From sequence record PZ386957.1: 64,000 nt of DNA; one strand, given 5' to 3'. Position numbers and translations under genes: made by a program. Origin of the DNA: a phage. The notes under the pieces are model-generated. The model was not told the origin of the DNA. It saw only the letters and a program-made list of their open reading frames with translations, and did no database searches. Positions 6,717 to 61,790 of this stretch are shown piece by piece. The first letter of the stretch is position 1. Every line of letters starts with the position of its first letter.

Positions 6717-6725
6717 GGAGTTATT

Positions 6726-7865: not shown

Positions 7866-7869
7866 CCAA

Positions 7870-8030: not shown

Positions 8031-8038
8031 TATAAATA
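8031..8038 (+). promoter_or_regulatory. late promoter box TATAAATA upstream of gene 36
   Basis: Exact TATAAATA about 33 nt upstream of gene 36 ATG, with GAGGAAAT RBS. Confidence 0.7.
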
Positions 8039-8070
8039 CTCAGTATTATAACTAGATTTGAGGAAATCTT

Positions 8071-9561
8071 ATGGCAGATTTGAAACATGGATCTACAGTT
8101 GGTGGATCACCGATTTGGACTCAAGGTAACTTGACAATCCAACCAGCGGGAGATCAACTATTCTATAAAGGTCATAAAATATACACTGCTTCCGACCGAC
8201 CTTCTGCTGGTGATGTTGATTCGGTTAGTGCTACCGAAGGTGGTACATTTCAAAGACCAGTTCATTTCAATGAAGGATTGAGTGTAGGTAGCGCATCGGC
8301 AGGTGAGACAAAAAAGAACGGATTATTCCCCGGTCAAAGCGATGCTGCTAATTTTGACGGTGTAAGTTGGGGTTTGCATTCATGGAAGTCAATTGGCTTT
8401 GTAAATGCCCGTGATGGCGTTATAATGGCATATATTGACACAACCACAGGTGATTTTAATACTAAAGGTTCCATTAATGGTGTAAACGTCAAAGACTCAG
8501 GTCAACGCGTCTATAGTCCGGTTAATAAGCCGACAAATAATGATTTGGATTTAGTTTCTCGTCGCGGTGATACTCTCACCGGAACTTATAATCTAAACAC
8601 TGTTACCGTTAAATTGTCTGTTGATTCTAAATTGGTGGCGAGAGATCGTGATTTAATTAACTTTGATGCAAGCAAGATTTATTATGGGAATACCGTAGAT
8701 TCTTTGGTATTCCGTAGTAAAGCAGAGCCATTAATTTATGTTAATGGTAAAGAAGGTAAATTCTATCACACCAATAATAAACCGACTAAGGCCGACGTTG
8801 GTCTAGGTAATGTCACCAATGATGCACAGGTTAAGCGTGCCGGTGATATCATGGAAGGTAATTTGCAAGCGCCTAGAATGTTGGCTACAAATGATCCGGC
8901 TGGTCCTAATGAACTAGTTAGATTAAGCTATTTTGAGAAAAAATCAATGGTAGCCAATCCAACGATCATCGGTACTGCTGATTGGAATACACTTATTGAC
9001 CGTGGTATCTATCGTGTAGAGAATGCTGGTTCTGGTACTAATATACCCTCAGATAGTTATTACTATGGGGTGTTAATGATCTATCGACCAGAAGATGCAA
9101 CGGGAACTCGTCGAATTGTTCAAGTTTATTACCCAGAGTCGATTAATCATCCGGTTTGTTGGCGTTCTTGTTCTGGTACTTCGTGGACTGCATGGAACTA
9201 TGTAGATCACCGTAAATTGGCTGATGCTCGCTATGTTAATGTTACTGGCGATAAGATGTCTGGTGCTTTATCTGTTCCTGCTGGGAATGGTGTTCGTACT
9301 ATAAGCACTAACTATAACGGTGATAACTATTACGTTGGTCTTAATAGCTTAGACGGCGTTGCTATGATCGAGCGGGTGAGCGACCTTAAGGCAAAAGAGC
9401 GTTTAGGTATTACTCATGATTCTAAGATTGTATTTGTTCGTTCTAAGAACAACACACAAACACAAGAAACATTAGAATTATATCATGAAGGCCATAAACC
9501 TACTCCTGCCGAAGTTGGCGCTGTTCCGCTTAACGCAGTAATTGATTTCGGTACTTTCTAA
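8071..9561 (+). CDS. 36: gp36 tail fibre protein (enlarged, 496 aa)
   Basis: N-terminus MADLKHGSTVGGSPIWTQGN...PAGD resembles T4 gp36 N-terminus; position between 35 and 37. Confidence 0.75.
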   Translation: MADLKHGSTVGGSPIWTQGNLTIQPAGDQLFYKGHKIYTASDRPSAGDVDSVSATEGGTFQRPVHFNEGLSVGSASAGETKKNGLFPGQSDAANFDGVSWGLHSWKSIGFVNARDGVIMAYIDTTTGDFNTKGSINGVNVKDSGQRVYSPVNKPTNNDLDLVSRRGDTLTGTYNLNTVTVKLSVDSKLVARDRDLINFDASKIYYGNTVDSLVFRSKAEPLIYVNGKEGKFYHTNNKPTKADVGLGNVTNDAQVKRAGDIMEGNLQAPRMLATNDPAGPNELVRLSYFEKKSMVANPTIIGTADWNTLIDRGIYRVENAGSGTNIPSDSYYYGVLMIYRPEDATGTRRIVQVYYPESINHPVCWRSCSGTSWTAWNYVDHRKLADARYVNVTGDKMSGALSVPAGNGVRTISTNYNGDNYYVGLNSLDGVAMIERVSDLKAKERLGITHDSKIVFVRSKNNTQTQETLELYHEGHKPTPAEVGAVPLNAVIDFGTF

Positions 9562-9565
9562 TTTT

Positions 9566-9591
9566 AGCGGGGATTCTTTCCCCGCTTTTTC
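9566..9591 (+). terminator. rho-independent terminator after gene 36
   Basis: AGCGGGGA-TTCTTT-CCCCGCT followed by TTTTT. Confidence 0.65.
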
Positions 9592-9632
9592 TAAATAATA
9601 CTATTCTAATAACTGTTTAAGGATTTTATAAA

Positions 9633-12389
9633 ATGGCAGATTTAAGCAGAATCCAATTTAAACGCACTAGCACAGCCGGACGTAAACCTGATGCGAATAT
9701 TCTAACTCCGGGTGAACTTGCTATTAACCTAGCGGATCGAGAACTATATACAAAAGATGATGACAATAATGTAATTACTTTGGGACACTTTCGCGGTGAA
9801 TTGCCAACTGATGCAAATTTAGATAATTATGGACCTACTGGTAAGTTTACTGGTATTTGGTCTAAAGCAACTTCAACCAACGCTCAGCCAACACATAAAT
9901 TCCCAGAAGATAATGCTGTGGGTGTATTGGAAGTATTTGCCGCTGGACAATTTGCCGGAACTCAGCGTTATACTGTTCGGTCTGGTAACGTCTATATTCG
10001 TTCCTTATCTGCTAAATGGAATGGTGTAGATGGTCCGTGGGGTGCGTGGAGGAATATTCAAACTGGTACACGACCACTATCAACCACATTGGACTTGAAT
10101 ACTTTAGGTGATGCATCTCATTTTGGTTTATGGAGGAATAGTTCAAGTTCTATTGCATCATTTTCTCGAAATTACCCAGAAGAAGGCGGTCTCGCGCAAG
10201 GTCTTTTAGAAATTTATGAAGGCGGTAACTATTCGCGCACACAGCGTTATACTACACGTATGGGTGTTGTGTATGTTCGTTGTCTTGCTGGTGCATGGGA
10301 TTCAGAAGCACCGAATTGGGGAGCGTGGCAACAAGTTGGTAACGTGACACCAGCGACTTTCTATGACGGAGACCTTAATAATTTTCGTTCTCCTGGTTTA
10401 TATAATATTTTAGGCACTGATGCCGTTATTAACTGTCCTACAGGGGAAGGGCTACCAGCCGTTATTGTTGGTTTATTGGAAGTTAAACAACGTGCTTCTG
10501 GTGGTGCAATTTTCCAAAAATTCACTACTGCCGGAACGGGAACTACTACCCGTGGACGTATTTTCGAACGTGCGATGACCAATAATATTTGGGGTGCATG
10601 GAACGAAGTATATACGTCTTATTCTCTGCCAATTACTTTGGGTATGGGTGGTGTTAAAACTCAGTTAACCGCGCTTGACTGGCAAACTTTCGATTTTGTT
10701 CCTGGTGCTATGTATAGCGTACCGTTGAACAAGATGACCAATATACCAGCAAATATGGATTGGGGAACTATTGATGGAAACCTAGTAATGCTGGCAGTAG
10801 GTCCGAGCGAGCATACCGGAACAGGTCGCACCGTTCAGGTTTGGCGTGGTACTGTAAGTCAAGCGAACTACCGTTATTTTGTCGTTCGTGTCGCCGGTAA
10901 TCCAGGAAACAGGACTAACACTTGTCGCCGTGTTGTTGTGGAAGATGGTCGCCATACATGGACAGCACAACAAGATTTTAATGGTGCTGTTAACTTCGGT
11001 AGCTCAACAACGTTTAAATCAACTACGACATTTAATACAGAAGTTAAATTCCGCTCATCTAACGCATTTCGTATGTATGGTGGTAACTTCGGTGCATTCA
11101 TGCGCAATGACGGTGAAAGTCTTTATATTCTTTCCACCAACGAAAATGATCAAGATGGAAACTTTAACACCAATAGACCTTTCCGATATCAATTGAAAAC
11201 TGGCGATGTTACTCTTGGTGGAACTAGCGGTGCTAACGCTTTAGTATTAAAAGGTGGTTCTCTTGCTGCTACCTTTGGTGGTGACATTAACTTGAGTAAA
11301 GGATATTTGACGTTTGAGGCTGGGCGATTATATTCTCGCGATTACTTCCGGTTTAACCATTGGGGTGATAGTAATAATGCGCGTGATAACATTATTCAGT
11401 TAGAAGATAGTCAAGGAGCACATTTTTCTACTGAACGTCAAATGTCAAACGGTGCAATTAAAACTAAATTCTTTGGACAAGTTGAGTCGAATGGACGGTT
11501 AACAATCAATGCACCAGGTGATGCTATTGTATTATCAACAACTGCTGGTAATTCTTTGCATATTCGCGGTGACGTAGGCGGGAATAATAACTGGTATATT
11601 GGTAAGGGTGGTGCTGATAATTCGCTAGCATTTTATAGCTATGCTACTCAGGCGGCAGTACATATCACAAACAACGGTGAGATTGCGTTAAACCCGCAAA
11701 ATACCGCAGTGGTTAACGTTAACCGCGACCGTGTGCATATCAATGGAACAGGTTGGGTTGCCCGACATTCCGGCGCATGGGTTGGCCAATGGAGAGAAGA
11801 AGCACCATTATTCGTTGATCACGGTAACGTTGGAGAGGATAGCTATTATCCGATTTTGAAAGGAAAAAGCAACATCACGAATCAAGGATATACTACTGCC
11901 GTAGATTTTGGTATACGTCGTGTTCCTAGCAAATGGGGTCAAGCAATTATTCGAGTTGCTTCTGCGGAGGCTTCACCTGATGCTGGTCATCCTCAAGCTG
12001 TATTTGAATTTCATCATGACGGATTATTTTATTCGCCAGGTAACGGTAATTTTAACGATGTGTATATTCGTTCTGATTCTCGTCTTAAGATCAATAAAGA
12101 AGAATTGGAAGATGGTGCAGTTGAAAAGGTATGTAGACTGAAAGTTTATACCTACGATAAAGTTAAGTCTATTAAAGATCGTAGTGTTATTAAACGTGAA
12201 GTTGGTGTTCTTGCTCAAGATCTTGAAAAAGAATTGCCCGAAGCTGTATCTAAAGTTGAAGTTGATGGATCTGATGTTCTGACAATTTCTAACTCTGCTG
12301 TGAATGCTCTTTTAATTAAGGCTATTCAGGAAATGAGCGAAGAATTGAAAGCCGTTAAAGCTGAACTAGCGGAACTTAAAAAGAATTAA
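9633..12389 (+). CDS. 37: gp37 distal long tail fibre with C-terminal intramolecular chaperone (S74-like) domain
   Basis: N-terminus MADLSRIQFKRTSTAGRKPDANILTPGELAINL resembles T4 gp37; C-terminal ~110 aa (SDSRLKINKEE...VGVLAQDLEKELPEAV...coiled coil) resembles self-cleaving chaperone domains of tail fibres/endosialidases. Confidence 0.85.
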   Translation: MADLSRIQFKRTSTAGRKPDANILTPGELAINLADRELYTKDDDNNVITLGHFRGELPTDANLDNYGPTGKFTGIWSKATSTNAQPTHKFPEDNAVGVLEVFAAGQFAGTQRYTVRSGNVYIRSLSAKWNGVDGPWGAWRNIQTGTRPLSTTLDLNTLGDASHFGLWRNSSSSIASFSRNYPEEGGLAQGLLEIYEGGNYSRTQRYTTRMGVVYVRCLAGAWDSEAPNWGAWQQVGNVTPATFYDGDLNNFRSPGLYNILGTDAVINCPTGEGLPAVIVGLLEVKQRASGGAIFQKFTTAGTGTTTRGRIFERAMTNNIWGAWNEVYTSYSLPITLGMGGVKTQLTALDWQTFDFVPGAMYSVPLNKMTNIPANMDWGTIDGNLVMLAVGPSEHTGTGRTVQVWRGTVSQANYRYFVVRVAGNPGNRTNTCRRVVVEDGRHTWTAQQDFNGAVNFGSSTTFKSTTTFNTEVKFRSSNAFRMYGGNFGAFMRNDGESLYILSTNENDQDGNFNTNRPFRYQLKTGDVTLGGTSGANALVLKGGSLAATFGGDINLSKGYLTFEAGRLYSRDYFRFNHWGDSNNARDNIIQLEDSQGAHFSTERQMSNGAIKTKFFGQVESNGRLTINAPGDAIVLSTTAGNSLHIRGDVGGNNNWYIGKGGADNSLAFYSYATQAAVHITNNGEIALNPQNTAVVNVNRDRVHINGTGWVARHSGAWVGQWREEAPLFVDHGNVGEDSYYPILKGKSNITNQGYTTAVDFGIRRVPSKWGQAIIRVASAEASPDAGHPQAVFEFHHDGLFYSPGNGNFNDVYIRSDSRLKINKEELEDGAVEKVCRLKVYTYDKVKSIKDRSVIKREVGVLAQDLEKELPEAVSKVEVDGSDVLTISNSAVNALLIKAIQEMSEELKAVKAELAELKKN

Positions 12390-12431
12390 GGAAAACTCCC
12401 AGGGAAGGGAAACTACTAAGGAGAAACGGCT

Positions 12432-12671
12432 ATGGTCTATAATATCGTCATTGGTGCCTTGTCTAGTTTCGGAATGAAACTATTATCAAAGTTAATTAGT
12501 GAAAAGATGCTCACTAAAATTTTCTTCTATTGCGCTCGTCGTCTTGCGGCATATACCAATACGCCAATTGATGATCGTTTCGTGGAAGAACTTTATAAGG
12601 AGTTTAATAAAGATCAGTCAGAAGATAGCAACGAGCAGAATAAAACGGGTGACAGTCAAGTACCTAAATAA
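12432..12671 (+). CDS. hypothetical small protein with hydrophobic N-terminus (79 aa)
   Basis: Strong RBS AAGGAGAAACGGCT before ATG; occupies the T4 gene 38 position between 37 and t; no similarity to gp38 recognised. Confidence 0.5.
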   Translation: MVYNIVIGALSSFGMKLLSKLISEKMLTKIFFYCARRLAAYTNTPIDDRFVEELYKEFNKDQSEDSNEQNKTGDSQVPK

Positions 12672-12705
12672 TGGTACACTGTCATAGTTATTTTTAGGGC
12701 ATTAT

Positions 12706-13362
12706 ATGCAAGTTTCTGAAAAAGAGAAAGACTTTGCTATCTCAAATGTCCTGCGCGCTATTTTCACAACTAAAAGCACGGAGTTGCTCGTACTTCGTGT
12801 TTTTGCTGCCGTTGTGTTGTCTATATTAGCATTTGTCGTTTATAGCAAAAACGAGTTGTTTGCGCTTTATAAAGAAACTCGTTATGAGACTTATGCTCAC
12901 GTTCTCCAGGTAGAAAAAGACCGCAATTTTGATAATGCAGCACAGGAGCAGTTACAGATAGTTCATGTGTCGGCAGATGCCGATTTTTCTGCTGTTTTTA
13001 GCTTTCGTCCAAAAAACCTAAACTATTTCGTTGATTTGGTGGCATATGAAGGAAAGCTACCGCATACAATCGATGAAAAGAATTTAGGCGGATTCCCTAT
13101 CAATAAAACGAGTGAAGAATATCGTAGGCATCTTTTAGGTAAATCCTATTTTACCGATAAAGATTTCCAGTATATTCCGTCGAGGGAGAAAAAATTAGAG
13201 AATATCGATATAGGATTCATGTATTCTTGTCCTATATTCAATCTCGATAATGTCTATTCTGGTAGTATCGCCATTGCATGGAAGAATAAACCAGATATTG
13301 ACATTGAGAATTTAGATACTCTTTGTAGTCAATCTGCCAGAATCCTCGGAAGGATTAGATAA
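12706..13362 (+). CDS. t: holin T
   Basis: 218 aa; YKETRYETY, EQLQIVHVSADADFSAVFSFRPKNLNYFVD, YEGKLPHTIDEKNLGG, MYSCPIFNLDNVYSGSI, SARILGR match remembered T4 holin T. Confidence 0.95.
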   Translation: MQVSEKEKDFAISNVLRAIFTTKSTELLVLRVFAAVVLSILAFVVYSKNELFALYKETRYETYAHVLQVEKDRNFDNAAQEQLQIVHVSADADFSAVFSFRPKNLNYFVDLVAYEGKLPHTIDEKNLGGFPINKTSEEYRRHLLGKSYFTDKDFQYIPSREKKLENIDIGFMYSCPIFNLDNVYSGSIAIAWKNKPDIDIENLDTLCSQSARILGRIR

Positions 13363-13646: not shown

Positions 13647-13975
13647 TCTGGAAACTTCCCGTAAATGTTCTCTGCCAACATACGCGCATCGCTAATGATA
13701 TCTTTCATGCTATGACCGTAGTGTTCAGCCATTGAGTTGATACAATCAACAAATAAATTATAACGGCGACGGTTTAAGATTTCTTCTCTGTTATAGTTTT
13801 CATACTTGACGGTCGAGTGTGCTTTCTCGATTGCCTTAATCGCTATATTGACTTCATTAATAATGGTTTTAGCATTATATGCGCCACGACGGATCAGGAT
13901 ATTTGTCAATTCTCTTGCAATATCTTGCAATTCTTCATATTCATGTTCAAACATAATCAACCTCTCAAAATACAA
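13643..13975 (-). CDS. hypothetical protein (110 aa)
   Basis: ORF track; 4-nt overlap with neighbour; no motif recognised. Confidence 0.45.
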   Translation of the reverse strand: MYFERLIMFEHEYEELQDIARELTNILIRRGAYNAKTIINEVNIAIKAIEKAHSTVKYENYNREEILNRRRYNLFVDCINSMAEHYGHSMKDIISDARMLAENIYGKFPE

Positions 13976-13978
13976 TCC

Positions 13979-14912: not shown

Positions 14913-15206
14913 TTATCTTCGGTTGTAATTCTGCCACTTTCGGTAATACTGCTTGTAAACCTGTTTTTCGTTTTCGCCATCTTTACTATACATGTTATCT
15001 ACCATCAAGTCAATAAGACCTTCCGGTGTCTGGTAGTTACCCGCTCGGATAAGTTCTTTAATTAAAGTGTCCTGATGATCTTTGTATACTACGTTAATGA
15101 TGGTCTTTTCTGCTTTCTTCGTCCCGATCATCCGGTGATTAGCTTTCATTGCATCCCACCAATCTTTTGTGATCTTCATGCTATTGAATTTCATAGTTAC
15201 TTGCAC
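14913..15206 (-). CDS. hypothetical protein (97 aa)
   Basis: ORF track; overlaps downstream gene start by 10 nt. Confidence 0.4.
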   Translation of the reverse strand: MQVTMKFNSMKITKDWWDAMKANHRMIGTKKAEKTIINVVYKDHQDTLIKELIRAGNYQTPEGLIDLMVDNMYSKDGENEKQVYKQYYRKWQNYNRR

Positions 15207-15961
15207 CCGTACTGGTCAATGTATGTTCTTGAATAATTTTTATGTACTTCTAAGCGAATCATATCTTGATTATCACGCCACACATAATATTTTTTGTTAT
15301 CCACTTGACCTTCATATTGCATAGCACCATTCTGATGCGTCACGGTTTTTGTTTTTGCTTTATGTGCGTTATAATTATCACGATACACAAATTCAATAAT
15401 TTCCCCGTCTTTTACTTTAAGTTTAAGTTCACCAGAGTTATAACGAGGATAACCAGGGTCTTTAACTACTTTTGTTTCTACCCCGTCGTGGATTTCCCAT
15501 TCATAGTGAACATCGCATTGTAATGTCATATCGCCTGTAAATCCTTTTGGTTTCTCTTCAACCTTCGGTTCTTCCACTACCTTTTCTTCCTGCTTTGGTT
15601 GTTCTTCAACCTTCACAGAAGTCTCTGAATCGCTCTCTGGCGATGTTTCTTCTTTAGGTAATACATTCATCAAGTTTTGGATTTGAGCGTTATACACAGC
15701 TTCCAGTGGCTGAATCTGCCCGATATTGATCATTGTATCACGAACAGTTTTATTCCAGTTGCGTTGCTCTTGTTTCAGAGACGGATCAATCTTAACAGCC
15801 TTAACATATACTTCATGGAGTTTAGAATCCAGTGCGGAGATTGACTCATTAGCACAAATAAACTTCTCTGATTTGGTAGTAGCCTTAGTGCAATCGAAGG
15901 ACGCAGCATTAGCACCGAAAGCAGTAGCAGAAAGAACTATAGCAGCGATAATGTTTTTCAT
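15197..15961 (-). CDS. secreted protein with N-terminal DUF1311 / LprI-like (lysozyme-inhibitor family) domain
   Basis: Signal peptide MKNIIAAIVLSATAFGANA; then SFDCTKATTKSEKFICANESISALDSKLHEVY...QRNWNKTVRD, the C..C...LD..L...Y...QR.W...RD pattern of DUF1311; Lys/Glu-rich linker; C-terminal beta-rich domain. Confidence 0.6.
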   Translation of the reverse strand: MKNIIAAIVLSATAFGANAASFDCTKATTKSEKFICANESISALDSKLHEVYVKAVKIDPSLKQEQRNWNKTVRDTMINIGQIQPLEAVYNAQIQNLMNVLPKEETSPESDSETSVKVEEQPKQEEKVVEEPKVEEKPKGFTGDMTLQCDVHYEWEIHDGVETKVVKDPGYPRYNSGELKLKVKDGEIIEFVYRDNYNAHKAKTKTVTHQNGAMQYEGQVDNKKYYVWRDNQDMIRLEVHKNYSRTYIDQYGCK

Positions 15962-15989
15962 AATATATTCCTCAGTGTTTTGTCTTGAT

Positions 15990-16024
15990 GGGAGTATCTT
16001 ACTACTCCCTTAATCCGGTGTCAA
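15990..16024 (-). promoter_or_regulatory. early sigma70-type promoter with inverted repeat around -10 (PeSL-like)
   Basis: Minus strand TTGACA-17 nt-TAAGAT; GGGAGTA/TACTCCC inverted repeat flanks the -10; AGGAATATATT ATG follows. Confidence 0.65.
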
Positions 16025-16031
16025 CTACTTT

Positions 16032-16187
16032 TTAAATTTCTTCTACAGTAAAGTCTTCAATGTTGTTGTGCTCGGAGAACGTTGCCAGACCAGCATCCCA
16101 CGCATCATCCTCAGAGAAGAATACACCATAACGTTCATATCCTTTAGCGCCTTCAAATTTAACCATTAATTTGTGAGTATGTTTCAT
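16032..16187 (-). CDS. hypothetical protein (51 aa; start moved to internal Met with RBS AAGGAGAATC)
   Basis: Track ORF 16032..16250 would overlap the promoter; internal ATG at 16187 has strong SD. Confidence 0.4.
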   Translation of the reverse strand: MKHTHKLMVKFEGAKGYERYGVFFSEDDAWDAGLATFSEHNNIEDFTVEEI

Positions 16188-16218
16188 TTTGATTCTCCTT
16201 CGTTGTCTTGATGAGTTC

Positions 16219-16247
16219 ATTGTAGGGGATCGGCGATCCCCTGTCAA
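16219..16247 (-). promoter_or_regulatory. early sigma70-type promoter with palindromic spacer
   Basis: TTGACA-GGGGATCGCCGATCCCC-TACAAT on minus strand. Confidence 0.6.
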
Positions 16248-16257
16248 CAACTATTTT

Positions 16258-16470
16258 TTAATTTTTACCCGCTAGTGCATTAATACGCATTTTCTGAATA
16301 GCCATGATCTGGCTTACTGCTTCTTCTTTACGTTCTTGTGTGATAACGTGACCAGATTCCGCAAACTCCCCCGCAACATCTTCTACAATCTCGCGAACTT
16401 GAGAACGTCCAAAGATGCGGTTTCCTTCGTAGCTCATAAACTCGGTCACTACTTGCTCAATAGATTTCAT
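16258..16470 (-). CDS. hypothetical protein (70 aa)
   Basis: ORF track; RBS AAAGGAGAATCATC before ATG. Confidence 0.45.
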   Translation of the reverse strand: MKSIEQVVTEFMSYEGNRIFGRSQVREIVEDVAGEFAESGHVITQERKEEAVSQIMAIQKMRINALAGKN

Positions 16471-16495
16471 GATGATTCTCCTTTCGTTTGGTATG

Positions 16496-16529
16496 GGAGT
16501 ATCTTACTACCGACGACCTTTGGCGTCAA
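16496..16529 (-). promoter_or_regulatory. early sigma70-type promoter (TTGACG-17-TAAGAT)
   Basis: Minus strand TTGACG, 17-nt spacer, TAAGAT, then ACTCCC. Confidence 0.6.
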
Positions 16530-16718
16530 CTAATTTTTATGGAATTTTAAATTATTTTCGACCTTCATCCATTCCGCGTATTCTTGCGCGGCTACTTTCG
16601 GATTTAGTCCGTCTTCGTACATTGCATCAAGTAATTCTTCGTCGGTGGGCTTATACCCTAGATAAGCCGCAACCTGATTTTTCCAAATCTTATACCAGTT
16701 CATATTATCACCAATCAA
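16530..16718 (-). CDS. hypothetical protein (62 aa)
   Basis: ORF track. Confidence 0.4.
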   Translation of the reverse strand: MIGDNMNWYKIWKNQVAAYLGYKPTDEELLDAMYEDGLNPKVAAQEYAEWMKVENNLKFHKN

Positions 16719-16980
16719 GAGCGCGTGTCTCTGCGTCTTCCCATGCTTGATTCATTACCGCCGTGAAAACATATTCTAAAGTATCATCTTTCGCAAATCC
16801 AAAGATCTTAGACGGGATATCTTCAATTGCTACTCCAGCAACTTCTGCATTACGCGCTTGGCAATAATGCAACTCTAAGTTATCGAGATAACGACCGCCT
16901 AATTTCTCCATATCATCCCAGCATTTCCAATAGCCTACTTTATCTGCGATTGCTAACACTATGCTGTTTTCGTTGTTCAT
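16708..16980 (-). CDS. hypothetical protein (90 aa; start moved to internal Met)
   Basis: Internal ATG at 16980 preceded by AGGAGAATCAAAG; track start 17046 would overlap the promoter. Confidence 0.45.
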   Translation of the reverse strand: MNNENSIVLAIADKVGYWKCWDDMEKLGGRYLDNLELHYCQARNAEVAGVAIEDIPSKIFGFAKDDTLEYVFTAVMNQAWEDAETRALDW

Positions 16981-17014
16981 CTTTGATTCTCCTAGTTCGT
17001 TTCGGTATGTGTGT

Positions 17015-17043
17015 ATTATGCAATGTTGGATTCTGGAAGTCAA
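17015..17043 (-). promoter_or_regulatory. early sigma70-type promoter (TTGACT-17-CATAAT)
   Basis: Minus strand TTGACT, 17-nt spacer, CATAAT. Confidence 0.6.
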
Positions 17044-17057
17044 CAACTTTTTTCAAA

Positions 17058-17084
17058 TAAAAAAGCCGACCACAAGGGTCGGCT
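17058..17084 (-). terminator. rho-independent terminator
   Basis: Minus strand GAGCCGACC-CTTGT-GGTCGGCT followed by TTTTTTAT. Confidence 0.7.
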
Positions 17085-17094
17085 CAATAATCAG

Positions 17095-17475
17095 TTACTT
17101 GCTAAATTTCTTTTTAGCTTCATCGACTGCATGAGATGCCAGCACCGCCGCCGCATGTGCACTTTTATCTGTGTTACAGAGAACACCCAGATAAACATCA
17201 CGCCAAAGTTTAATCATCTCATAGATCATATCAATATCATTTTCTTGCTTGTTGGCGATGGTATTCGTCGTTATCTGGTACGGTGACGGCTTAACCTGTG
17301 CTGGATCTGCCATCGGGCTAATCGGTGTCGAATCAGTCATAGGCTTTACTTTAAATACGTCATCATACCACGGTTTAACGGTTGTACCGTACAGTTTATA
17401 AGGATTTTTGTCTGGATCAACCATCCATGTATGATGAATATCTAAACCATTTGAAGTAATGCGTCGCTCAGTCAT
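17095..17475 (-). CDS. hypothetical protein (126 aa)
   Basis: ORF track; 4-nt overlap with upstream ORF. Confidence 0.45.
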   Translation of the reverse strand: MTERRITSNGLDIHHTWMVDPDKNPYKLYGTTVKPWYDDVFKVKPMTDSTPISPMADPAQVKPSPYQITTNTIANKQENDIDMIYEMIKLWRDVYLGVLCNTDKSAHAAAVLASHAVDEAKKKFSK

Positions 17476-17681
17476 GTTTTGCCCCCCTCTGATAATTCTT
17501 TCATCAAATTGTCAATCTTTGCTCGGTGTTCTGGTGTGTTTGTTATCTCTGCTAATTTGTTCAGAGATTCAATGGTGATGCGGTTTGCCTCTTCCATCGT
17601 TTCAACAACCATTGGCACGATCTTTTTATTGTTTAATAAGAAAGCGACATACCCACCAACCGGATAATCTTTCATAATCAC
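17472..17681 (-). CDS. hypothetical protein (69 aa)
   Basis: ORF track; 4-nt overlap with gene 52. Confidence 0.45.
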   Translation of the reverse strand: MIMKDYPVGGYVAFLLNNKKIVPMVVETMEEANRITIESLNKLAEITNTPEHRAKIDNLMKELSEGGKT

Positions 17682-19036
17682 CCCTTCAATTCTTTAAGGT
17701 CTTTCTTATACTCTTTCAAAGATGTGGTTTTCATCCAATAATCATATTCCTTATGGTGTTTTTCTGCATCTTTGACCAGTCGATCATATTCTTCTTGCGT
17801 TACGCTGTACAGTGGCATAGAAACGAGTTTATCAGCGTACTGGCGCAGTTTTTCGTGTTCCTTGATGGATTGCATTACCTCGGTCTTTTTCTTTCCCTGT
17901 AACGCGATCTCGCCCTTAATTACGCGATCAATAAATTCGGCTTTAGCCATTGCATAATTGTAGGCTTCGAGTGTCTCCGCTTGCATATGCTCAATTCGTT
18001 TATCGACATACCCTAAACGAATCTCGACAAATCGACGAATTAGGTCGCTTGCTTTCTCGAATACCTCTACTCGTCCACGTTCATTAACAACGACTATATT
18101 TTGTGCGACAAGCTGTGTCAGCTTAAAATCTTTCATGATCTGCTCATGTCGATGATCTTCGTTGTCGCTTTTGAAGTAGTCACGTTTCAGAGTAACTTCA
18201 AACCGAAAACCTTCTTTAGAGCACCGATCATTATATGAGACAATAGCGCCTTTTTCTTCCAGTACATCAAGTACAGCGACATAGCTTTCACGGTCAAACT
18301 TATAGGGAACTTCTGTTATTGTCAGCTTAGTTTTGCCGTTTAGTTCATATGTACCCTCTAGAATAACACCATCTCGGTCATCACGCGGGATAACTTTACC
18401 AGTAAATTTCGGGAATTGAACACTAGGTTCTTTATCCAGTTTTCCGGCTAGTGCTAGCTCTGTGCATTCAATAAGGCTTTCCAGTGAATGCGGTAAAATG
18501 TCAGTTTTATACCCTGTAGCAATACCACTAACACCATTAGCTAATACCATTGGCACAACTGGCAAGTAGAACGCTGGCGGAATATGTTCTAAATCTTCGT
18601 GCTTTGGTGCGCATTCCATATCTTTATAGATTTTAAAGAAGTTTTCATGCACACGAGCGAAGATATAACGTGCTGCACCTGCTTTCTGGACTAAACGCGA
18701 TCCAAAGTTCCCTTGACCGTCAAGCAGTGGAGTATTATTGCTCCACGTATTCGCCATGAGTGATCCTGCTTCTACGGCATTAGTTTCCCCGTGGTGATAA
18801 CCTAACTCAGCGACACCCGATCCAATATCTGCCATCTTACGGAATTTCTTACGGTCGCCTTTACTCTTTTGTAAAGCACATTCCATAACAAAGCGTTGCA
18901 CTGGTTTAAGTCCATCTACTAATTGAGGAATACCGCGTTCCTCTGCGGAATAGATCGCATATTCCTTAGCTTCATTATGTACAATGCTTTCAAGGCTGCG
19001 GTAAGTAACTGATTTATTCATCTTCACCTCATACAC
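17678..19036 (-). CDS. 52: DNA topoisomerase II medium subunit gp52 (GyrA-like)
   Basis: 452 aa; PQLVDGLKPVQRFV, GNFGS, ARYIFARV, GVSGIATGYKTDILPH are GyrA/ParC-type motifs as in T4 gp52. Confidence 0.92.
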   Translation of the reverse strand: MYEVKMNKSVTYRSLESIVHNEAKEYAIYSAEERGIPQLVDGLKPVQRFVMECALQKSKGDRKKFRKMADIGSGVAELGYHHGETNAVEAGSLMANTWSNNTPLLDGQGNFGSRLVQKAGAARYIFARVHENFFKIYKDMECAPKHEDLEHIPPAFYLPVVPMVLANGVSGIATGYKTDILPHSLESLIECTELALAGKLDKEPSVQFPKFTGKVIPRDDRDGVILEGTYELNGKTKLTITEVPYKFDRESYVAVLDVLEEKGAIVSYNDRCSKEGFRFEVTLKRDYFKSDNEDHRHEQIMKDFKLTQLVAQNIVVVNERGRVEVFEKASDLIRRFVEIRLGYVDKRIEHMQAETLEAYNYAMAKAEFIDRVIKGEIALQGKKKTEVMQSIKEHEKLRQYADKLVSMPLYSVTQEEYDRLVKDAEKHHKEYDYWMKTTSLKEYKKDLKELKG

Positions 19037-23849: not shown

Positions 23850-23887
23850 TTTGATTCTCCTACTTGGTATCTCGTTTCGATGGGGAC

Positions 23888-23916
23888 ATTATGATATATC
23901 CCCGATCCAGTGTCAA
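23888..23916 (-). promoter_or_regulatory. early sigma70-type promoter (TTGACA-17-CATAAT)
   Basis: Minus strand TTGACA, 17-nt spacer, CATAAT, flanked by GGGGA/TCCCC. Confidence 0.55.
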
Positions 23917-24224: not shown

Positions 24225-24258
24225 TGTTAAATCCTCATAAAATAAAAGGGAGACTCTC

Positions 24259-24286
24259 ATTATAGAGAATCTCCCTTGTATGTCAA
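24259..24286 (-). promoter_or_regulatory. early sigma70-type promoter with inverted repeat around -10
   Basis: TTGACA-16-TATAAT with GGGAGATTCTC / GAGAGTCTCCC flanking the -10. Confidence 0.6.
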
Positions 24287-31577: not shown

Positions 31578-31644
31578 AATAAAAAGCCTCCAATCTTTCG
31601 ACTGGAGGCATGATAAAACCATTATAGAGTAGTGTCAACTAATT

Positions 31645-37690: not shown

Positions 37691-37918
37691 CTATTCAGTT
37701 AATCCGTAATACTTTAATTGCTTCATTGTTATTCGATCTTTGTAGTGCTCTTGAATTAACTTTTTCATCGCATCAACATCGATCGTCACAAATACTTCGT
37801 TGCTGTGATTTCCGTGAACTTTCTTGAAGTGCTCTATCGCGTCCTCTCGTTCACGTCTAATCTTTTCGATATCTCTCATAGTATATTTCTCACGCTGGCG
37901 GGTATCGTCACCCAACAC
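37691..37918 (-). CDS. hypothetical protein (75 aa)
   Basis: ORF track; only ORF between uvsX and polymerase 43B. Confidence 0.4.
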   Translation of the reverse strand: MLGDDTRQREKYTMRDIEKIRREREDAIEHFKKVHGNHSNEVFVTIDVDAMKKLIQEHYKDRITMKQLKYYGLTE

Positions 37919-37940
37919 CCGCCATTATACACACTTTATC

Positions 37941-39380
37941 TTAAATGTCAAACAGGTCCGTAAGCGATGCCACTTTTTCATATTGCAGCTTTGCAGCCGT
38001 GGTAATGTTCTCCAGTGGTTTGACGAAAGTCTTATTGAACAACAAAGACCAGTCCAACCACTTTAACACCTCTGATTCAATTTCTGGAGGAATACGAGTA
38101 CCAGACAACCAACCAAAACAGATTTCTCCAAACGGATTTCGATCTTTGAGCGGTACGATCATAACTTTCTCGCCCTCACGAATCGGATCTAGTCCAAATT
38201 TTCGAGCATTACGATTATAACACAATACGCTCTTAACCGCATACGGACAGCCCTTAATCGGATACCCGTTTGAATCGCTGTATTTCTGTAGGTTGTTTGC
38301 AGATGATACCGCAGCAACCTCAAGATAGTCAAGTTTTCTAAATTCTTGCTCAAAAATACCGTAGTATTCCTGCAATGACTCTTCACCTTCCTGCAACATA
38401 CGACGAATACATTCTTTCAGTGATTTCTGACATGCTTTAGGTGTAGAACTACGTTGCGTTTCTAAGCCCATGATTTTTAGCTTAGGTTCAGCAAAGCGAG
38501 TTCCTTCCATATCCCAAACATTAAGAGCATAACGCTTTTTACCAGTCCAGAATCCACCGATACCCGCAGATTTCAACGGAGGACCAGCAATTGCCTCACG
38601 GTCCATAAACATCAAGTGCTCATAGTTGTTCATGTACTCGCATAACTCGCGATATCCCTTGTCGATAATAGGTTCCATTCGATGTTTACCGAAATTATCA
38701 AGGAAGTCAACAAGTTTTTCGGTATCGTCGAAACGGTCTTCCCCACCAACCTTATCAACAACATTGTTAACCAGCACATAAACGGAGTCAGTATCACAAT
38801 AACGAACATATGCAAAATCGGTTGTTCCGCAAAGTTCGTTTAAGTATTCGTTAATCTTACGCTCAATCCACTGAATTGCAAGCTGACCGAACAAAGTGAT
38901 CGCACTAGCATTACGCAGATCATACAAACGAAATTTCGGATTTCCTACATATTTTCAATGAGTCGCGCAACCAACTCACCCGCCGTTAGGCTGCTGCATA
39001 TCGCTATGCAGATAAGACTATATCACCTATCAACCGAAGTCAATAGCCCACCATTTCGAGCGCCATTAGCTTGCACCCTACACCGTTACACTCATCACGG
39101 TTAGTCGTTAGGCATTTACAGCATTATAGCTGATTTAGCACGGGATTGTCAACCAGTCCGTATACGTTGATATTCCCCGTTTAGATGGGTTTAAGGTGCG
39201 CTAGGATGTTTACGCACCATAAAGGCTGTTAATCAATACCTTTCGTGAAAGTTGGTTTGTGTTACATAGAATAGACTCGTCTTGACATATCGCTAGATGC
39301 CGTTCTAATTCCTCGATTGGTAACGAATCAAGATAGGCCAATTCTTCATCGGTGAAGTCTTTACGATGATCTATATTCAT
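37941..39380 (-). CDS. 43: DNA polymerase subunit 43B (motifs B and C), interrupted by a group I intron; exon 1 39380..39212, exon 2 38947..37941
   Basis: Exon 1 from ATG 39380 encodes MNIDHRKDF...CNTNQLSRKVLINSLYGA (motif B); spliced to exon 2 gives YGA-LGNPKFRLYDLRNAS...YCDTDSVYV (motif C). Track ORF 37941..38927 is the exon 2 part. Confidence 0.8.
38948..39211 (-). ncRNA. group I self-splicing intron (td-like, subgroup IA2-type core), ORF-less, 264 nt
   Basis: Minus strand has ACGGGGAA, GACAATCCCGTGCTAAAT, TAAATGCCTAACGACTA, TAGGGTGCAAG, CTCGAAA, GATATAGTCT, CTGCAT...ATGCAG as in the T4 td intron; P1 pairs exon GGUGCGU with GCGCACC (U.G at splice site); ends in G. Confidence 0.8.
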
Positions 39381-41715: not shown

Positions 41716-41767
41716 TCATTATAGGGGAATCGACTTAGTTTGTCAATACCCCTATCCCATCAGTATC

Positions 41768-43699: not shown

Positions 43700-43749
43700 A
43701 AATTACATCATTAAAACGGGGAGTATTTACACTCCCCACAAACATTATA

Positions 43750-44439
43750 TTAGTCGGTGTAGCTGGAGTCAAGGTCACACGCGATCATATAAGATACGGT
43801 TTCACTTGCCAGCCATACAGCCTTACGGCGAGTGAAGCTCAATTTGTAATCGCCGAAGTCGGTAGCAACCAGTTTCATGTTATCTTTACGAATAAAGAAA
43901 TGGAAGTCTGCGGTTCCGGCATATTCGCCCATATCAAGACAAAACATCTCATTCGGATTATTTTTGTCAATTTCTTCCCAACCTTTGATCATAAGACGAC
44001 CATCAATCGGTAGAAACTCAAGGCGATCCACTTTAAGCTGATTGCTCATTTTCATAAGCTGTTTCAGATCGTCGTTGCTCAGTTCGTAATCTACATCGCT
44101 TGCAGGTGGAGTAACTCGGCCTTTCGGTGATACGATAGCAGCAGCACTAGCACCAGGATAATTAATTTTCAGACGATCGTTAGACACACGAATGTTACCA
44201 GTGCGGTTATCAACCGTAATATCTGCTTCATCGCCTACCAGATTCAGGATACCCAAGAAAGAGTTAAGATCATAGATCCCGATTTCGTGTTCCAGTTCTT
44301 GATTCAGAGTCGCTTCACCATATACAACGTTTGTCATGTTTTTGGTGATCAGGACGTTTCCTTTTTTCAGGATGATACCTGGGTTAATAGCGGAAAAGTT
44401 TTTCAGGGTAGCAATGGTTTCTTTAGTCAGTTTCATCAA
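43750..44439 (-). CDS. 45: sliding clamp gp45
   Basis: 229 aa directly downstream of 44 on minus strand; T4 gp45 size. Confidence 0.85.
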   Translation of the reverse strand: MMKLTKETIATLKNFSAINPGIILKKGNVLITKNMTNVVYGEATLNQELEHEIGIYDLNSFLGILNLVGDEADITVDNRTGNIRVSNDRLKINYPGASAAAIVSPKGRVTPPASDVDYELSNDDLKQLMKMSNQLKVDRLEFLPIDGRLMIKGWEEIDKNNPNEMFCLDMGEYAGTADFHFFIRKDNMKLVATDFGDYKLSFTRRKAVWLASETVSYMIACDLDSSYTD

Positions 44440-48523: not shown

Positions 48524-48552
48524 AGTATAACGGGGATTTCTCCCCGCGTCAA
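48524..48552 (-). promoter_or_regulatory. early sigma70-type promoter with inverted-repeat spacer
   Basis: TTGACG-CGGGGAGAAATCCCCGT-TATACT on minus strand. Confidence 0.55.
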
Positions 48553-55965: not shown

Positions 55966-55994
55966 AGTATAGGGGATCTCGCGATCCCCGTCAA
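55966..55994 (-). promoter_or_regulatory. early sigma70-type promoter with palindromic spacer
   Basis: TTGACG-GGGATCGCGAGATCCCC-TATACT on minus strand. Confidence 0.6.
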
Positions 55995-57111: not shown

Positions 57112-57139
57112 ATTATACATGAGCTAATCATGTTGTCAA
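57112..57139 (-). promoter_or_regulatory. early sigma70-type promoter (TTGACA-16-TATAAT)
   Basis: Minus strand consensus -35 and -10. Confidence 0.6.
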
Positions 57140-57150
57140 CACCCCAAAAC

Positions 57151-57177
57151 GAAAAAGCCGACCCTTTCGGATCGGCT
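57151..57177 (-). terminator. rho-independent terminator downstream of nrdD
   Basis: Minus strand AGCCGATCC-GAAA-GGGTCGGCT followed by TTTTC. Confidence 0.7.
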
Positions 57178-59584: not shown

Positions 59585-59614
59585 AATATAATCCTCTCGT
59601 TGTTAAGTGGGAGT

Positions 59615-59642
59615 ATTATAGCATACTCCCTTCGCATGTCAA
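59615..59642 (-). promoter_or_regulatory. early sigma70-type promoter with inverted repeat around -10 (PeSL-like)
   Basis: TTGACA-16-TATAAT with GGGAGTA/TACTCCC flanking the -10. Confidence 0.65.
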
Positions 59643-60817: not shown

Positions 60818-60848
60818 AATATAATCCTCTCGTTGTTTAGATGGGAGT

Positions 60849-60877
60849 ATCTTACTACTCCCGTTTCATCATGTCAA
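60849..60877 (-). promoter_or_regulatory. early sigma70-type promoter with inverted repeat around -10 (PeSL-like)
   Basis: TTGACA-17-TAAGAT with GGGAGTA/TACTCCC flanking the -10. Confidence 0.65.
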
Positions 60878-61727: not shown

Positions 61728-61757
61728 TGTTGATTCTCCTTCTTGATTAGATGGGAG

Positions 61758-61786
61758 TATTTTACTACTCCCATTTCTTATTGTCA
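61758..61786 (-). promoter_or_regulatory. early sigma70-type promoter with inverted repeat around -10 (PeSL-like)
   Basis: TTGACA-17-TAAAAT with GGGAGTA/TACTCCC flanking the -10. Confidence 0.65.
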
Positions 61787-61790
61787 ACTA

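What the first reader, a model, noticed from the sequence alone, without database searches (positions are those of the whole stretch)
15990..16529. Dispersed early-promoter cassettes with an inverted repeat around the -10 box (PeSL-like elements)
At least twelve intergenic sites on the minus strand share TTGAC(A/G/T), a 16-17-nt spacer and a TA..AT -10 box. In many, a GC-rich inverted repeat (GGGAGTA...TACTCCC or GGGGATCG..CGATCCCC) brackets or fills the spacer and -10. Sites: 15990-16024, 16219-16247, 16496-16529, 17015-17043, 23888-23916, 24259-24286, 48524-48552, 55966-55994, 57112-57139, 59615-59642, 60849-60877, 61758-61786. The hairpin could terminate upstream transcription or occlude the -10, and the repeats offer homology for gene shuffling. 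Similar promoter-early stem-loops have been described in some T4-type phages.
Basis: partly seen in the sequence, partly recalled or inferred. Interest (0 to 1): 0.7.

Follow-up and report, generated by a model that had tools for sequence, protein, structure and literature searches.

The report
Known early promoter–hairpin cassettes (PeSLs)
The repeated promoter-plus-hairpin motifs are real, but they are the already described "PeSL" regulatory cassettes of RB49-like T4-type coliphages, here found in a new member of that genus and again sitting at the junctions where related phages have gained or lost small genes.

Summary
All 12 listed minus-strand sites have a TTGAC -35 box, a 16-17-nt spacer, a -10 box, an AT-rich upstream stretch and a downstream SD plus ATG. 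The stringent motif occurs 16 and 9 times against about 1 expected. Nine of the 12 carry a hairpin of -10 kcal/mol or stronger overlapping the promoter, against 5% of background windows.

The window is a Krischvirus, about 94% identical to RB49, Phi1 and JSE. This is the genus in which Arbiol et al. (2010) defined PeSLs as sigma70 early promoter plus stem-loop cassettes, with reporter evidence for promoter and terminator activity and for recombination between copies. The window's cassettes are orthologous to RB49/Phi1 sites. At least four more with hairpins exist (41746, 37951, 31638, 43772).

Three cassette-level gene gains or losses among seven genomes have their junctions at cassettes 16247, 16529 and 17043. 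Cassette 16529 is a recombinant mosaic. The rare stem changes keep pairing.

Two side finds look more interesting. Gene 39 is split by a MobA homing endonuclease with a T4 gene-60-type translational bypass of 40 nt. Gene 43 is split by a GIY-YIG endonuclease gene and carries a group I intron.

The parts
15990..16024 (-). PeSL upstream of the ORF262 homolog. TTGACA-17-TAAGAT, with the 7-bp stem GGGAGTA/TACTCCC bracketing the -10 box (-10-in-loop class).
   Evidence: Ortholog in RB49, Phi1, Brandy, SSG23, JK32 and JSE. JK32 has the compensatory variant TGGAGTA/TACTCCA.
16219..16247 (-). PeSL upstream of the ORF263 homolog. TTGACA-17-TACAAT, with the stem GGGGATCG/CGATCCCC filling the spacer (spacer class).
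   Evidence: The insertion of Phi1-specific ORF263.1 maps to window 16261-16268, the AT-rich edge of this cassette.
16495..16529 (-). Mosaic PeSL upstream of the ORF264 homolog. TTGACG-17-TAAGAT. The 3' arm TACTCCC is kept and the 5' arm is replaced by ccaaaggtcgtcggtag, so there is no hairpin.
   Evidence: The spacer equals that of Brandy_4344/SSG23_4339, where it encodes the C-terminus of an ORF absent from the window. The flanks are RB49-type.
17015..17085 (-). PeSL upstream of the ORF266 homolog. A U-tract terminator hairpin (17063-17085) lies upstream of TTGACT-17-CATAAT (17015-17043).
   Evidence: Brandy, SSG23 and JK32 have an extra 68-aa ORF flanked by two cassettes at this position.
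23882..23916 (-). PeSL. TTGACA-17-CATAAT, with the 8-bp stem GGGGATAT/ATGTCCCC (one G.U pair) bracketing the -10 box.
   Evidence: The 193 nt of extra ORF004 in RB49/Phi1 join the window at 23861-23875, in this cassette's leader.
24236..24286 (-). PeSL. TTGACA-16-TATAAT inside the loop of a 13-bp hairpin followed by a T-run, which makes it a canonical intrinsic terminator shape.
   Evidence: (dG -22.1, z -8.2).
48524..48552 (-). PeSL. TTGACG-17-TATACT, with the stem CGGGGA/TCCCCG in the spacer.
55966..55994 (-). PeSL. TTGACG-17-TATACT, with the stem GGGGATC/GATCCCC in the spacer.
   Evidence: It is 100% identical to RB49 over 220 nt.
57112..57169 (-). PeSL downstream of nrdD. A terminator hairpin lies upstream (about 57150-57169), then TTGACA-16-TATAAT.
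59609..59642 (-). PeSL. TTGACA-16-TATAAT, with the 8-bp stem GGGAGTAT/ATACTCCC bracketing the -10 box.
60843..60877 (-). PeSL. TTGACA-17-TAAGAT, with the GGGAGTA/TACTCCC stem.
61751..61787 (-). PeSL. TTGACA-17-TAAAAT, with the 9-bp stem TGGGAGTAG/ATACTCCCA (core GGGAGTA/TACTCCC).
   Evidence: Phi1 has a wobble variant, TGCTCCC.
41718..41755 (-). TTGACA-17-TATAAT, with a long stem spanning the -35 box and the spacer.
   Evidence: (dG -16.6). RB49 annotates an early promoter here. The 2010 paper states that gene 43 is flanked by PeSLs.
37895..37951 (-). TTGACA-16-TATAAT, with a hairpin downstream of the -10 box.
   Evidence: core identical in RB49 and Phi1; annotated early promoter.
31580..31638 (-). 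Promoter-like box TTGACA-17-TATCAT followed by a 10-bp hairpin and a T-run (downstream-of--10 class).
   Evidence: (dG -17.7). RB49 and Phi1 have a weaker -10 box here, so promoter status is uncertain.
43719..43772 (-). TTGACT-17-TATAAT at the end of the gene 45 homolog, followed by the hairpin GGGGAGT/ACTCCCC and a T-run.
   Evidence: RB49 annotates early and late promoters here.

Best explanation
These are PeSLs (promoter-early stem-loops), the composite regulatory cassettes that precede many small early genes in RB49-like (Krischvirus) phages.

Each cassette holds, in about 90-100 bp:
- the stop codon of the upstream gene in an AT-rich stretch;
- a near-consensus sigma70 -35/-10 pair used by unmodified host RNA polymerase right after infection;
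- a G-run/C-run hairpin placed in the spacer, around the -10 box, across the -35 box, or just upstream or downstream;
- the SD and ATG of the next gene.

The promoter starts transcription at the A of a conserved C|AT motif, immediately 3' of the hairpin arm. Transcripts made from the cassette therefore lack the complete hairpin. Transcripts reading in from upstream contain it and are attenuated, terminated or 3'-stabilised there. This insulates each small gene as its own unit.

Because the cassettes share 20-60 nt of near-identical sequence, the phage's recombination system exchanges between them. That deletes, inserts or swaps the genes they flank.

What is shown here: the motif, its enrichment and strand bias, the hairpins, orthology to RB49/Phi1, and indel junctions and a mosaic cassette at these sites. 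What is published for other PeSLs of RB49/phi1: promoter and terminator activity, and mini-circles. What is inferred: the start site at these particular sites and the fate of read-through transcripts.
For: - Identity of the genome: 90-94% identity to RB49, Phi1, JSE and Brandy.
- Published definition and experiments: PMC2839356 and PMC4122927.
- Motif enrichment.
- All 12 sites show an AT-rich upstream region (mean 76% AT against 59.5% for the window), sigma70 boxes, SD and ATG.
- Hairpins: 9 of 12 at -10 kcal/mol or stronger, against 5.2% of background windows, P = 5e-10. All five published positional classes are present.
- Orthology: cassette cores are 94-100% identical to RB49/Phi1 at syntenic positions.
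- Stem variants keep pairing: JG32-type compensatory G-C to T-A in JK32, and G.U wobbles in Phi1 at two sites and in RB49/Phi1 at 24286.
- Strand test: sense-strand folds are stronger at 10 of 13 sites, with 8 G.U pairs in sense against 3 in antisense.
- Start site: 10 of 12 sites have C at -1 and AT at +1/+2 right after the 3' arm. This matches the RB49 early-promoter consensus (C at -3 to -1), which the authors say agrees with 5'-end mapping (PMC1524935).
- Shuffling: 3 of the 4 indel junctions in the holin-to-gene 52 region lie at cassettes, P about 0.004. Brandy, SSG23 and JK32 have cassette-ORF-cassette where the window has one cassette. Cassette 16529 is a mosaic of two cassette types.
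Against: - No transcript data exist for this genome. Promoter and terminator activities were measured only for other PeSLs (193/192, 206/205, 211/210) in RB49/phi1.
- The hairpins inside the finding's own span (16024, 16247) and the other GGGAGTA copies lack a U-tract, so canonical intrinsic termination is not predicted for them.
- The GGGAGTA-N6-TACTCCC unit is conserved as sequence across paralogs. Covariation evidence therefore rests on only a few variants.
- Not all indels are at cassettes: 13768-13977, 28368-28425 and the homing-endonuclease insertions are not.
Confidence: 0.9

Rival explanations
1. The inverted repeats act as duplex-DNA palindromes. They would be binding sites for a dimeric phage or host protein, either a repressor that shuts off early promoters or a recombination protein that targets the cassettes, rather than RNA hairpins.
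For: GGGAGTA-N6-TACTCCC is conserved at the sequence level in many paralogous copies and is restricted to Krischvirus-like genomes. It overlaps the -10 box, where an operator would sit. The 2010 authors raise a GGGG...CCCC-binding recombination protein as a possibility.
Against: At least five unrelated stem sequences occupy different registers relative to the promoter, which does not fit one DNA-binding specificity. Stems contain G.T pairs that pair only in the sense strand (8 against 3), and sense folds are more stable at 10 of 13 sites. The few stem variants preserve pairing rather than sequence. No candidate protein has been identified.
Confidence: 0.1
2. The hairpins are not terminators but RNA 3'-end stabilisers or processing marks. 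Read-through transcripts would be trimmed back to the hairpin, which protects the upstream mRNA from 3' exonucleases and sets message half-lives.
For: Most hairpins lack a U-tract. They sit immediately after the upstream stop codon. The sense-strand bias fits an RNA role.
Against: One PeSL stem-loop (211/210) reduced downstream lacZ expression about as much as rrnB T1 in vivo. This fits termination, although a reporter cannot separate termination from processing. Several window cassettes do have full terminator shape: 24286, 31638, and the hairpins upstream of 17043 and 57139.
Confidence: 0.2
3. The 3' arm is simply the promoter's own GC-rich discriminator, since C at -3 to -1 is part of the RB49 early consensus. 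On this view the 5' arm complementarity tunes promoter melting or strength at the DNA level, with no role for an RNA hairpin.
For: C-rich -3 to -1 is a general feature of RB49 early promoters. ACTCCC|A is shared even by the stemless cassette 16529.
Against: This does not explain the hairpins lying wholly in the spacer, across the -35 box, or upstream or downstream of the promoter. It also does not explain the compensatory and wobble changes.
Confidence: 0.07
4. The repeats have no function of their own. They would be copies of one promoter spread by duplication, and the palindromes would be chance.
For: Several copies are near-identical.
Against: Hairpins of this strength are about 15 times rarer in background windows, and z-scores against shuffles run from -3.3 to -8.2. 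Independent stem sequences all pair. Cassette cores are conserved at or above the genome average.
Confidence: 0.02

Closest known systems
PeSLs of coliphages RB49 and phi1 (Arbiol, Comeau, Kutateladze, Adamia, Krisch 2010, Genome Biol Evol 2:140; PMC2839356)
   Same: The genus is the same, as are the genomic positions (orthologous sites with 94-100% identical cores) and the architecture: an AT-rich upstream region with the stop codon, sigma70 -35/-10 boxes, a G-run/C-run stem-loop in the same five positional classes, and SD plus ATG. The link with gain and loss of small ORFans is also the same, including the published pattern of an ORF flanked by two PeSLs in one genome against a single chimeric PeSL in another.
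   Different: Nothing essential differs. This genome is a roughly 94%-identical lineage with its own cassette complement in the holin-to-gene 52 region: 4 cassettes, against 5-6 in JK32, Brandy and SSG23. Cassette 16529 is a mosaic whose spacer is a relic of coding sequence from an ORF this phage lacks.
PeSL-like promoter-terminator motifs of T4/PST and KVP40/nt-1 (Comeau, Arbiol, Krisch 2014; PMC4122927)
   Same: They are composite early-promoter plus stem-loop elements in hyperplastic regions, implicated in indels between closely related phage pairs.
   Different: Those elements are analogs built on each group's own early-promoter consensus and, in T-evens, on weaker AT-rich stems. The window's cassettes are sigma70-consensus, G/C-stem elements of the RB49 type.
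Rho-independent (intrinsic) terminators
   Same: Both have a GC-rich hairpin directly after a stop codon. Five window hairpins also carry the U-tract: 24286, 31638, 43772, and the ones upstream of 17043 and 57139.
   Different: The GGGAGTA/TACTCCC and GGGGATC/GATCCCC hairpins, including those in the finding's span, have no U-tract, and they are interleaved with a promoter's -10 box or spacer.
Morons (Hendrix) and integron gene cassettes
   Same: All are small accessory genes that travel with their own expression signals. The PeSL authors themselves compare PeSL plus ORFan units with integron cassettes.
   Different: No integrase or attC-type site is known for PeSLs. Exchange appears to use general homologous recombination between the regulatory sequences themselves.

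Membership tests
PeSL (RB49/phi1 type) | Near-consensus sigma70 -35 and -10 hexamers with a 16-18-nt spacer, oriented with the early genes | tested here: met
   All 12 sites meet this. Enrichment is 16 against 0.96 and 9 against 1.07 expected, with 24 of 25 matches on the minus strand.
PeSL (RB49/phi1 type) | [quoted passage not shown] | tested here: met
   The 20 nt upstream average 76% AT, against 59.5% for the window. Upstream ORF stop codons lie within about 0-50 nt of the -35 box.
PeSL (RB49/phi1 type) | Stable stem-loop, often G-run then C-run, in one of five positions relative to the promoter | tested here: met
   Nine of the 12 listed sites have a hairpin overlapping the promoter. Two have it upstream of the -35 box. 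One (16529) has lost it. All five published classes occur in the window.
PeSL (RB49/phi1 type) | Shine-Dalgarno sequence and start codon of the downstream gene at the 3' end | tested here: met
   GGAG or GAGG plus ATG lies 27-42 nt after the -10 box at all 12 sites.
PeSL (RB49/phi1 type) | Location mainly in hyperplastic regions upstream of ORFans, and flanking plastic genes such as gene 43 and nrdD | tested here: met
   The downstream genes are 'hypothetical protein' in the RB49 and Phi1 annotation. Cassettes flank gene 43 (41746, 37951) and follow nrdD (57139).
PeSL (RB49/phi1 type) | Homology or orthology to the cassettes of RB49 and phi1 | tested here: met
   Syntenic sites in RB49 and Phi1 have 94-100% identical cores for 11 of the 12 listed sites; at 23916 the match breaks in the leader at the ORF004 junction. 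The same cassettes occur in Brandy, SSG23, JK32 and JSE.
PeSL (RB49/phi1 type) | Association with insertion, deletion or replacement junctions between related genomes | tested here: met
   Junctions lie at 16261-16268, 16546-16548, 16976-17017 and 23861-23875. There is a mosaic cassette and a cassette-ORF-cassette arrangement in relatives.
PeSL (RB49/phi1 type) | Early promoter activity and attenuation or termination of upstream transcription | not testable with these tools
   This is published for PeSL206/205 (promoter) and PeSL211/210 (stem-loop) in lacZ reporters. There are no data for the window's sites.
PeSL (RB49/phi1 type) | [quoted passage not shown] | not testable with these tools
   Shown by PCR and physical evidence in the 2010 paper for ORF192 and ORF210. 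It needs wet-lab work here.
Intrinsic (Rho-independent) terminator | GC-rich hairpin followed directly by a U-tract | tested here: not met
   Not met for the hairpins in the finding's span (16024, 16247) or for the other GGGAGTA, GGGGATC and 23916 copies: only 1-2 T (up to 5, in the -10 box) in the 10 nt after the stem. Met at 24286 and 31638, upstream of 17043 and 57139, and approximately at 43772.

The most novel reading that the evidence does not exclude
The GGGAGTA-N6-TACTCCC palindrome is conserved as sequence across paralogous cassettes and is confined to Krischvirus-like genomes. It could be the recognition site of a dedicated phage-encoded DNA-binding or recombination protein. PeSL plus ORFan units would then be integron-like, site-specifically mobile cassettes rather than passive patches of homology.
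Probability: 0.08. Interest if true: 0.6.

Novelty: already known. Interest (0 to 1): 0.2.

Why it matters
PeSLs are a concrete mechanism for modular evolution of large lytic phage genomes. The same roughly 100-bp unit insulates and expresses a small accessory gene, and it also provides the homology that lets the gene be deleted, inserted or swapped. This window adds an independent replication of the 2010 model in a new Krischvirus lineage: cassette-bounded indels among seven genomes and a mosaic cassette. It adds no new principle. For annotation, the practical value is that these sites mark early transcription units and likely recombination hot spots.

Tried and rejected
- A loose sigma70 consensus scan (9 of 12) is not enriched (64 against 55 expected). 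Only the stringent motif and the strand bias carry signal.
- My first greedy gene caller mis-assigned several loci. I replaced it with a context test requiring promoter, SD, start codon and ORF.
- Many relaxed TTGAC...TA...T matches are intragenic and lack hairpins, so I did not count them.
- The strong sigma70-like match at 39152-39123 looked like a cassette inside gene 43 but lies in the core of a group I intron. I rejected it.
- Ortholog-level covariation has little power because stems are almost invariant between genomes. The GGGAGTA class is conserved as sequence among paralogs, so I did not run a formal covariation statistic. I report the few variants individually.
- Rfam has no family matching the cassettes.
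- The supplement of the 2010 paper, which holds the PeSL list and reporter figure, is not held. One-to-one naming of window sites as published PeSL numbers was therefore not possible.
- The junction at 49575-49579, where RB49 has an HNH gene, has a terminator hairpin but no -35 box. It is explained by endonuclease homing, not by PeSL exchange.

Full report
**What the window is.** Megablast of window 15000-19000 and 40000-64000 against the phage collection finds only RB49-like phages (genus Krischvirus: RB49, Phi1, JSE, Brandy, Sf20 and others). Identity is about 90-92% in the first segment and about 94% in the second. The window runs from rnh and the long tail-fibre genes (plus strand, 2962-13362) into the minus-strand early region. 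That region holds the holin-proximal hyperplastic region, then genes 52, rIIB, rIIA, 39, dexA, dda, 61, 41, uvsX, 43, 45, 46, 47, 55, nrdG, nrdD and dam, by synteny with the RB49 and Phi1 annotation.

**Checking the observation.** All twelve sites are present on the minus strand. Each has TTGAC(A/G/T), a 16- or 17-nt spacer, a -10 hexamer, an AT-rich stretch upstream that holds the previous gene's stop codon, and a GGAG/GAGG plus ATG 27-42 nt downstream.
- The stringent pattern TTGAC-N18-TANNAT occurs 16 times against 0.96 expected, all on the minus strand. The N17 version occurs 9 times against 1.07, with 8 on the minus strand.
- Requiring a downstream SD, start codon and ORF leaves 29 minus-strand candidates and 1 plus-strand candidate.
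- The 20 nt upstream of the -35 box average 76% AT, against 59.5% for the window.
- A loose consensus scan is not enriched (64 against 55 expected), but all nine sites matching at least 11 of 12 lie on the minus strand.
- Small corrections: four of the twelve -10 boxes are CATAAT or TATACT rather than TA..AT, and one coordinate is off by one base.

**The inverted repeats.** For each cassette I searched for the best single hairpin between 30 nt upstream of the -35 box and 25 nt downstream of the -10 box.
- Nine of the twelve listed sites have a hairpin of -10.4 to -22.1 kcal/mol overlapping the promoter, with z-scores of -3.3 to -8.2 against dinucleotide shuffles.
- Only 5.2% of tiled 83-nt windows of the same strand reach -10 kcal/mol, giving a binomial P of 5e-10.
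- The hairpins fall into classes. Those bracketing the -10 box are GGGAGTA/TACTCCC at 16024, 60877 and 61787; GGGAGTAT/ATACTCCC at 59642; GGGGATAT/ATGTCCCC at 23916; and a 13-bp stem plus T-run at 24286.
- Those filling the spacer are at 16247, 55994 and 48552. One spans the -35 box (41746). Those downstream of the -10 box are at 31638, 43772 and 37951. U-tract terminators upstream of the -35 box occur at 17043 and 57139.
- Site 16529 keeps only the 3' arm. Sites 31070 and 27275 have no hairpin.

**What they are.** The literature search returns Arbiol et al. 2010 (PMC2839356) and Comeau et al. 2014 (PMC4122927).
- The 2010 paper defines PeSLs in RB49 and phi1. [quoted passage not shown] The motif is bounded by the upstream stop codon and by the downstream SD and start codon.
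- About 52 PeSLs occur per genome, mostly in hyperplastic regions upstream of ORFans, and on both sides of gene 43.
- The authors showed high promoter activity for PeSL206/205. They showed a drop in lacZ expression comparable to rrnB T1 for the stem-loop of PeSL211/210. They also showed that 10 of 14 differential ORFans are contiguous to a PeSL, and that recombination between neighbouring PeSLs yields mini-circles.
- The window's cassettes meet every sequence-level criterion and are positional orthologs. In RB49 and Phi1 the same cassettes sit at the syntenic sites with near-identical cores, for example 100% over 220 nt at 55994. Brandy, SSG23, JK32 and JSE carry the same cassettes in the holin-to-gene 52 region.
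- The exact TTGAC-N10-GGGAGTAGTANNATACTCCC unit is found in only three IMG/VR contigs, two of them Krischvirus-sized.

**Structure or sequence?** Between orthologs the stems hardly change. Among paralogs the GGGAGTA-N6-TACTCCC unit is conserved as sequence. Covariation evidence is therefore thin, but it is consistent.
- JK32 has TGGAGTA/TACTCCA, a compensatory G-C to T-A change.
- Phi1 has TACTCTC and TGCTCCC, and RB49/Phi1 have an A-to-G change at 24286. All three create G.U pairs.
- One RB49/Phi1 change at 31638 breaks an internal G.U pair.
- Different cassettes use unrelated stems that all pair.
- Folding both strands shows the sense strand more stable at 10 of 13 sites, with 8 G.U pairs in sense against 3 in antisense. 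This favours a role in the transcript, or in the sense single strand, over a duplex palindrome.

**Geometry.** In 10 of 12 sites the six bases after the -10 box end in C and are followed by AT. Nolan et al. 2006 report a preference for C at -3 to -1 in RB49 early promoters. [quoted passage not shown]
- The predicted start is therefore the A immediately after the 3' arm in the -10-in-loop class.
- It follows, by inference, that transcripts initiated at a cassette lack the full hairpin, while read-through transcripts from upstream contain it.
- Only 24286, 31638, 43772 and the hairpins upstream of 17043 and 57139 have a U-tract. The hairpins in the finding's own span do not. For them 'terminator' remains an extrapolation from the published 211/210 test. 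A role as a 3'-end stabiliser or processing mark is a live, non-exclusive alternative.

**Gene shuffling.** Aligning the window to RB49 and Phi1 and the holin-to-gene 52 region to six relatives places the gene-content junctions as follows.
- Phi1-specific ORF263.1 joins at window 16261-16268, the AT-rich edge of cassette 16247.
- Brandy and SSG23 carry about 507 extra nt joining at 16546-16548, the upstream edge of cassette 16529.
- Brandy, SSG23 and JK32 carry an extra 68-aa ORF joining at 16976-17017, in the leader of cassette 17043. In those genomes the ORF is flanked by two cassettes. This is the arrangement drawn for ORF192 in the 2010 paper.
- RB49 and Phi1 ORF004 joins at 23861-23875, in the leader of cassette 23916.
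- Three of the four indel junctions in the holin-to-gene 52 region are thus at cassettes that occupy about 10% of it (P about 0.004).
- The alignment shows that cassette 16529 is a mosaic. Its flanks and leader are RB49-type. Its spacer is the Brandy_4344/SSG23_4339 type, and in Brandy that spacer encodes the C-terminus (...LVDAKGHR*) of a 74-aa ORF the window lacks.
- Other differences are not cassette-linked: the gp37 variable region, 13768-13977, 28368-28425, and the homing-endonuclease insertions.

**Verdict.** The elements are already described for this very genus. The window contributes an independent confirmation of cassette-mediated shuffling and one mosaic cassette, but no new kind of element.

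**Noticed on the way.**
- Gene 39 is split as in T4. ORF1 runs 27185-25647. A 310-aa HNH ORF runs 25650-24718 and is only about 40% identical to the MobA-type endonucleases of Aeromonas, Acinetobacter and Proteus phages.
- The gene 60-like ORF has the N-terminal peptide MKLKKIDTQNVNMVAYKAQTNVRRRRTPTTMYKNIAIMTDADTDG, homologous to T4 gp60 residues 1-46. It ends in GGT TAG, followed by the T4-identical hairpin TAGCCTTCGGGCTA, then GAG-N6 and a GGC landing codon 37 nt downstream. From there RB49 gp39 residues 491-607 resume in another frame.
- This is a gene-60-type translational bypass with a 40-nt gap, against 50 nt in T4. Manning and Atkins (bioRxiv 10.1101/2022.08.31.505936) list six phage clades with such cassettes and do not name RB49-like phages in the text. 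No phage record covers the element.
- Gene 43 is split by a GIY-YIG endonuclease ORF (40198-39377). A 56-aa exon follows that is only 58% identical to RB49. Then comes a group I intron (RF00028, 52 bits, E = 6e-12, 39245-38994) inserted after ...NSLYGA of polymerase motif B.
- The sigma70-like box at 39152 lies inside that intron.

Noticed in passing
window 24290-25776, minus strand (take-off GGT 24683-24681, TAG 24680-24678, landing GGC 24643-24641, HNH ORF 25650-24718): The topoisomerase II large-subunit gene is split, as in T4 genes 39 and 60, by a MobA-type HNH endonuclease cassette that carries a gene-60-type translational bypass element. The N-terminal peptide is homologous to T4 gp60 residues 1-46. 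The take-off hairpin TAGCCTTCGGGCTA is identical to T4's, and GAG lies 6 nt before the landing codon. The take-off and landing codons are GGU/GGC, and the gap is 40 nt instead of 50. RB49 and Phi1 have the fused gene. No phage record covers the element, and the MobA ORF is only about 40% identical to known ones. RB49-like phages are not named among the clades in the text of Manning and Atkins 2022.
   Followed up: partly
window 37944-41685, minus strand (GIY-YIG ORF 40198-39377; 56-aa exon 39380-39210; intron about 39212-38949, Rfam hit 39245-38994): DNA polymerase gene 43 is in pieces. A free-standing GIY-YIG endonuclease ORF splits it after residue ~495. A 56-aa exon follows that is only 58% identical to RB49, while the flanks are 97-99% identical. 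Then an ORF-less group I intron (RF00028, 52 bits) interrupts motif B (KxxxNSxYG). The closest GIY-YIG relatives (37-47% identity) sit in the split polymerase genes of Aeromonas phages and in E. coli phage G2285. No phage record covers the 1.3-kb insertion.
   Followed up: partly
window 39123-39152, minus strand: A near-perfect sigma70-like match (TTGACA-18-TATAAT) lies inside the conserved core of the group I intron. It is a false positive for the cassette family.
   Followed up: yes
window 1-64000 against 38800-40300: The whole-window Rfam search at gathering threshold returned nothing. A targeted search of 1.5 kb then found the group I intron at 52 bits, above its gathering score of 50. The fast filters on the long input lost a true hit.
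   Followed up: yes
window 23452-23480 and 21494-21522, minus strand: Two perfect-consensus TTGACA-17-TATAAT promoters lie inside coding sequence, upstream of rIIA and near the 3' end of rIIA. Neither has a hairpin or an AT-rich upstream block. They are probably internal early promoters of a different build from the cassettes.
   Followed up: no
window 9761-12040, plus strand: The distal long tail-fibre gene (gp37 homolog) has a segment with little or no nucleotide similarity to RB49 and Phi1, while the flanks align. This is probably a swapped receptor-binding region.
   Followed up: no
window 49575-49669, minus strand: RB49's HNH/AP2 homing endonuclease gene (ORF040) is absent here, as it is in Phi1. 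The intergenic region has a terminator-shaped hairpin plus T-run but no -35 box.
   Followed up: partly
window 15198-15557, minus strand: A 360-nt stretch inside the 254-aa signal-peptide ORF (RB49 ORF262 homolog) has no detectable nucleotide similarity to any of six relatives, while both flanks are 89-97% identical. This is an intragenic mosaic segment.
   Followed up: no
whole window: The phage is only about 94% identical (90-92% in the hyperplastic region) to every Krischvirus in the 2025 phage collection. It probably represents a separate species-level lineage.
   Followed up: partly
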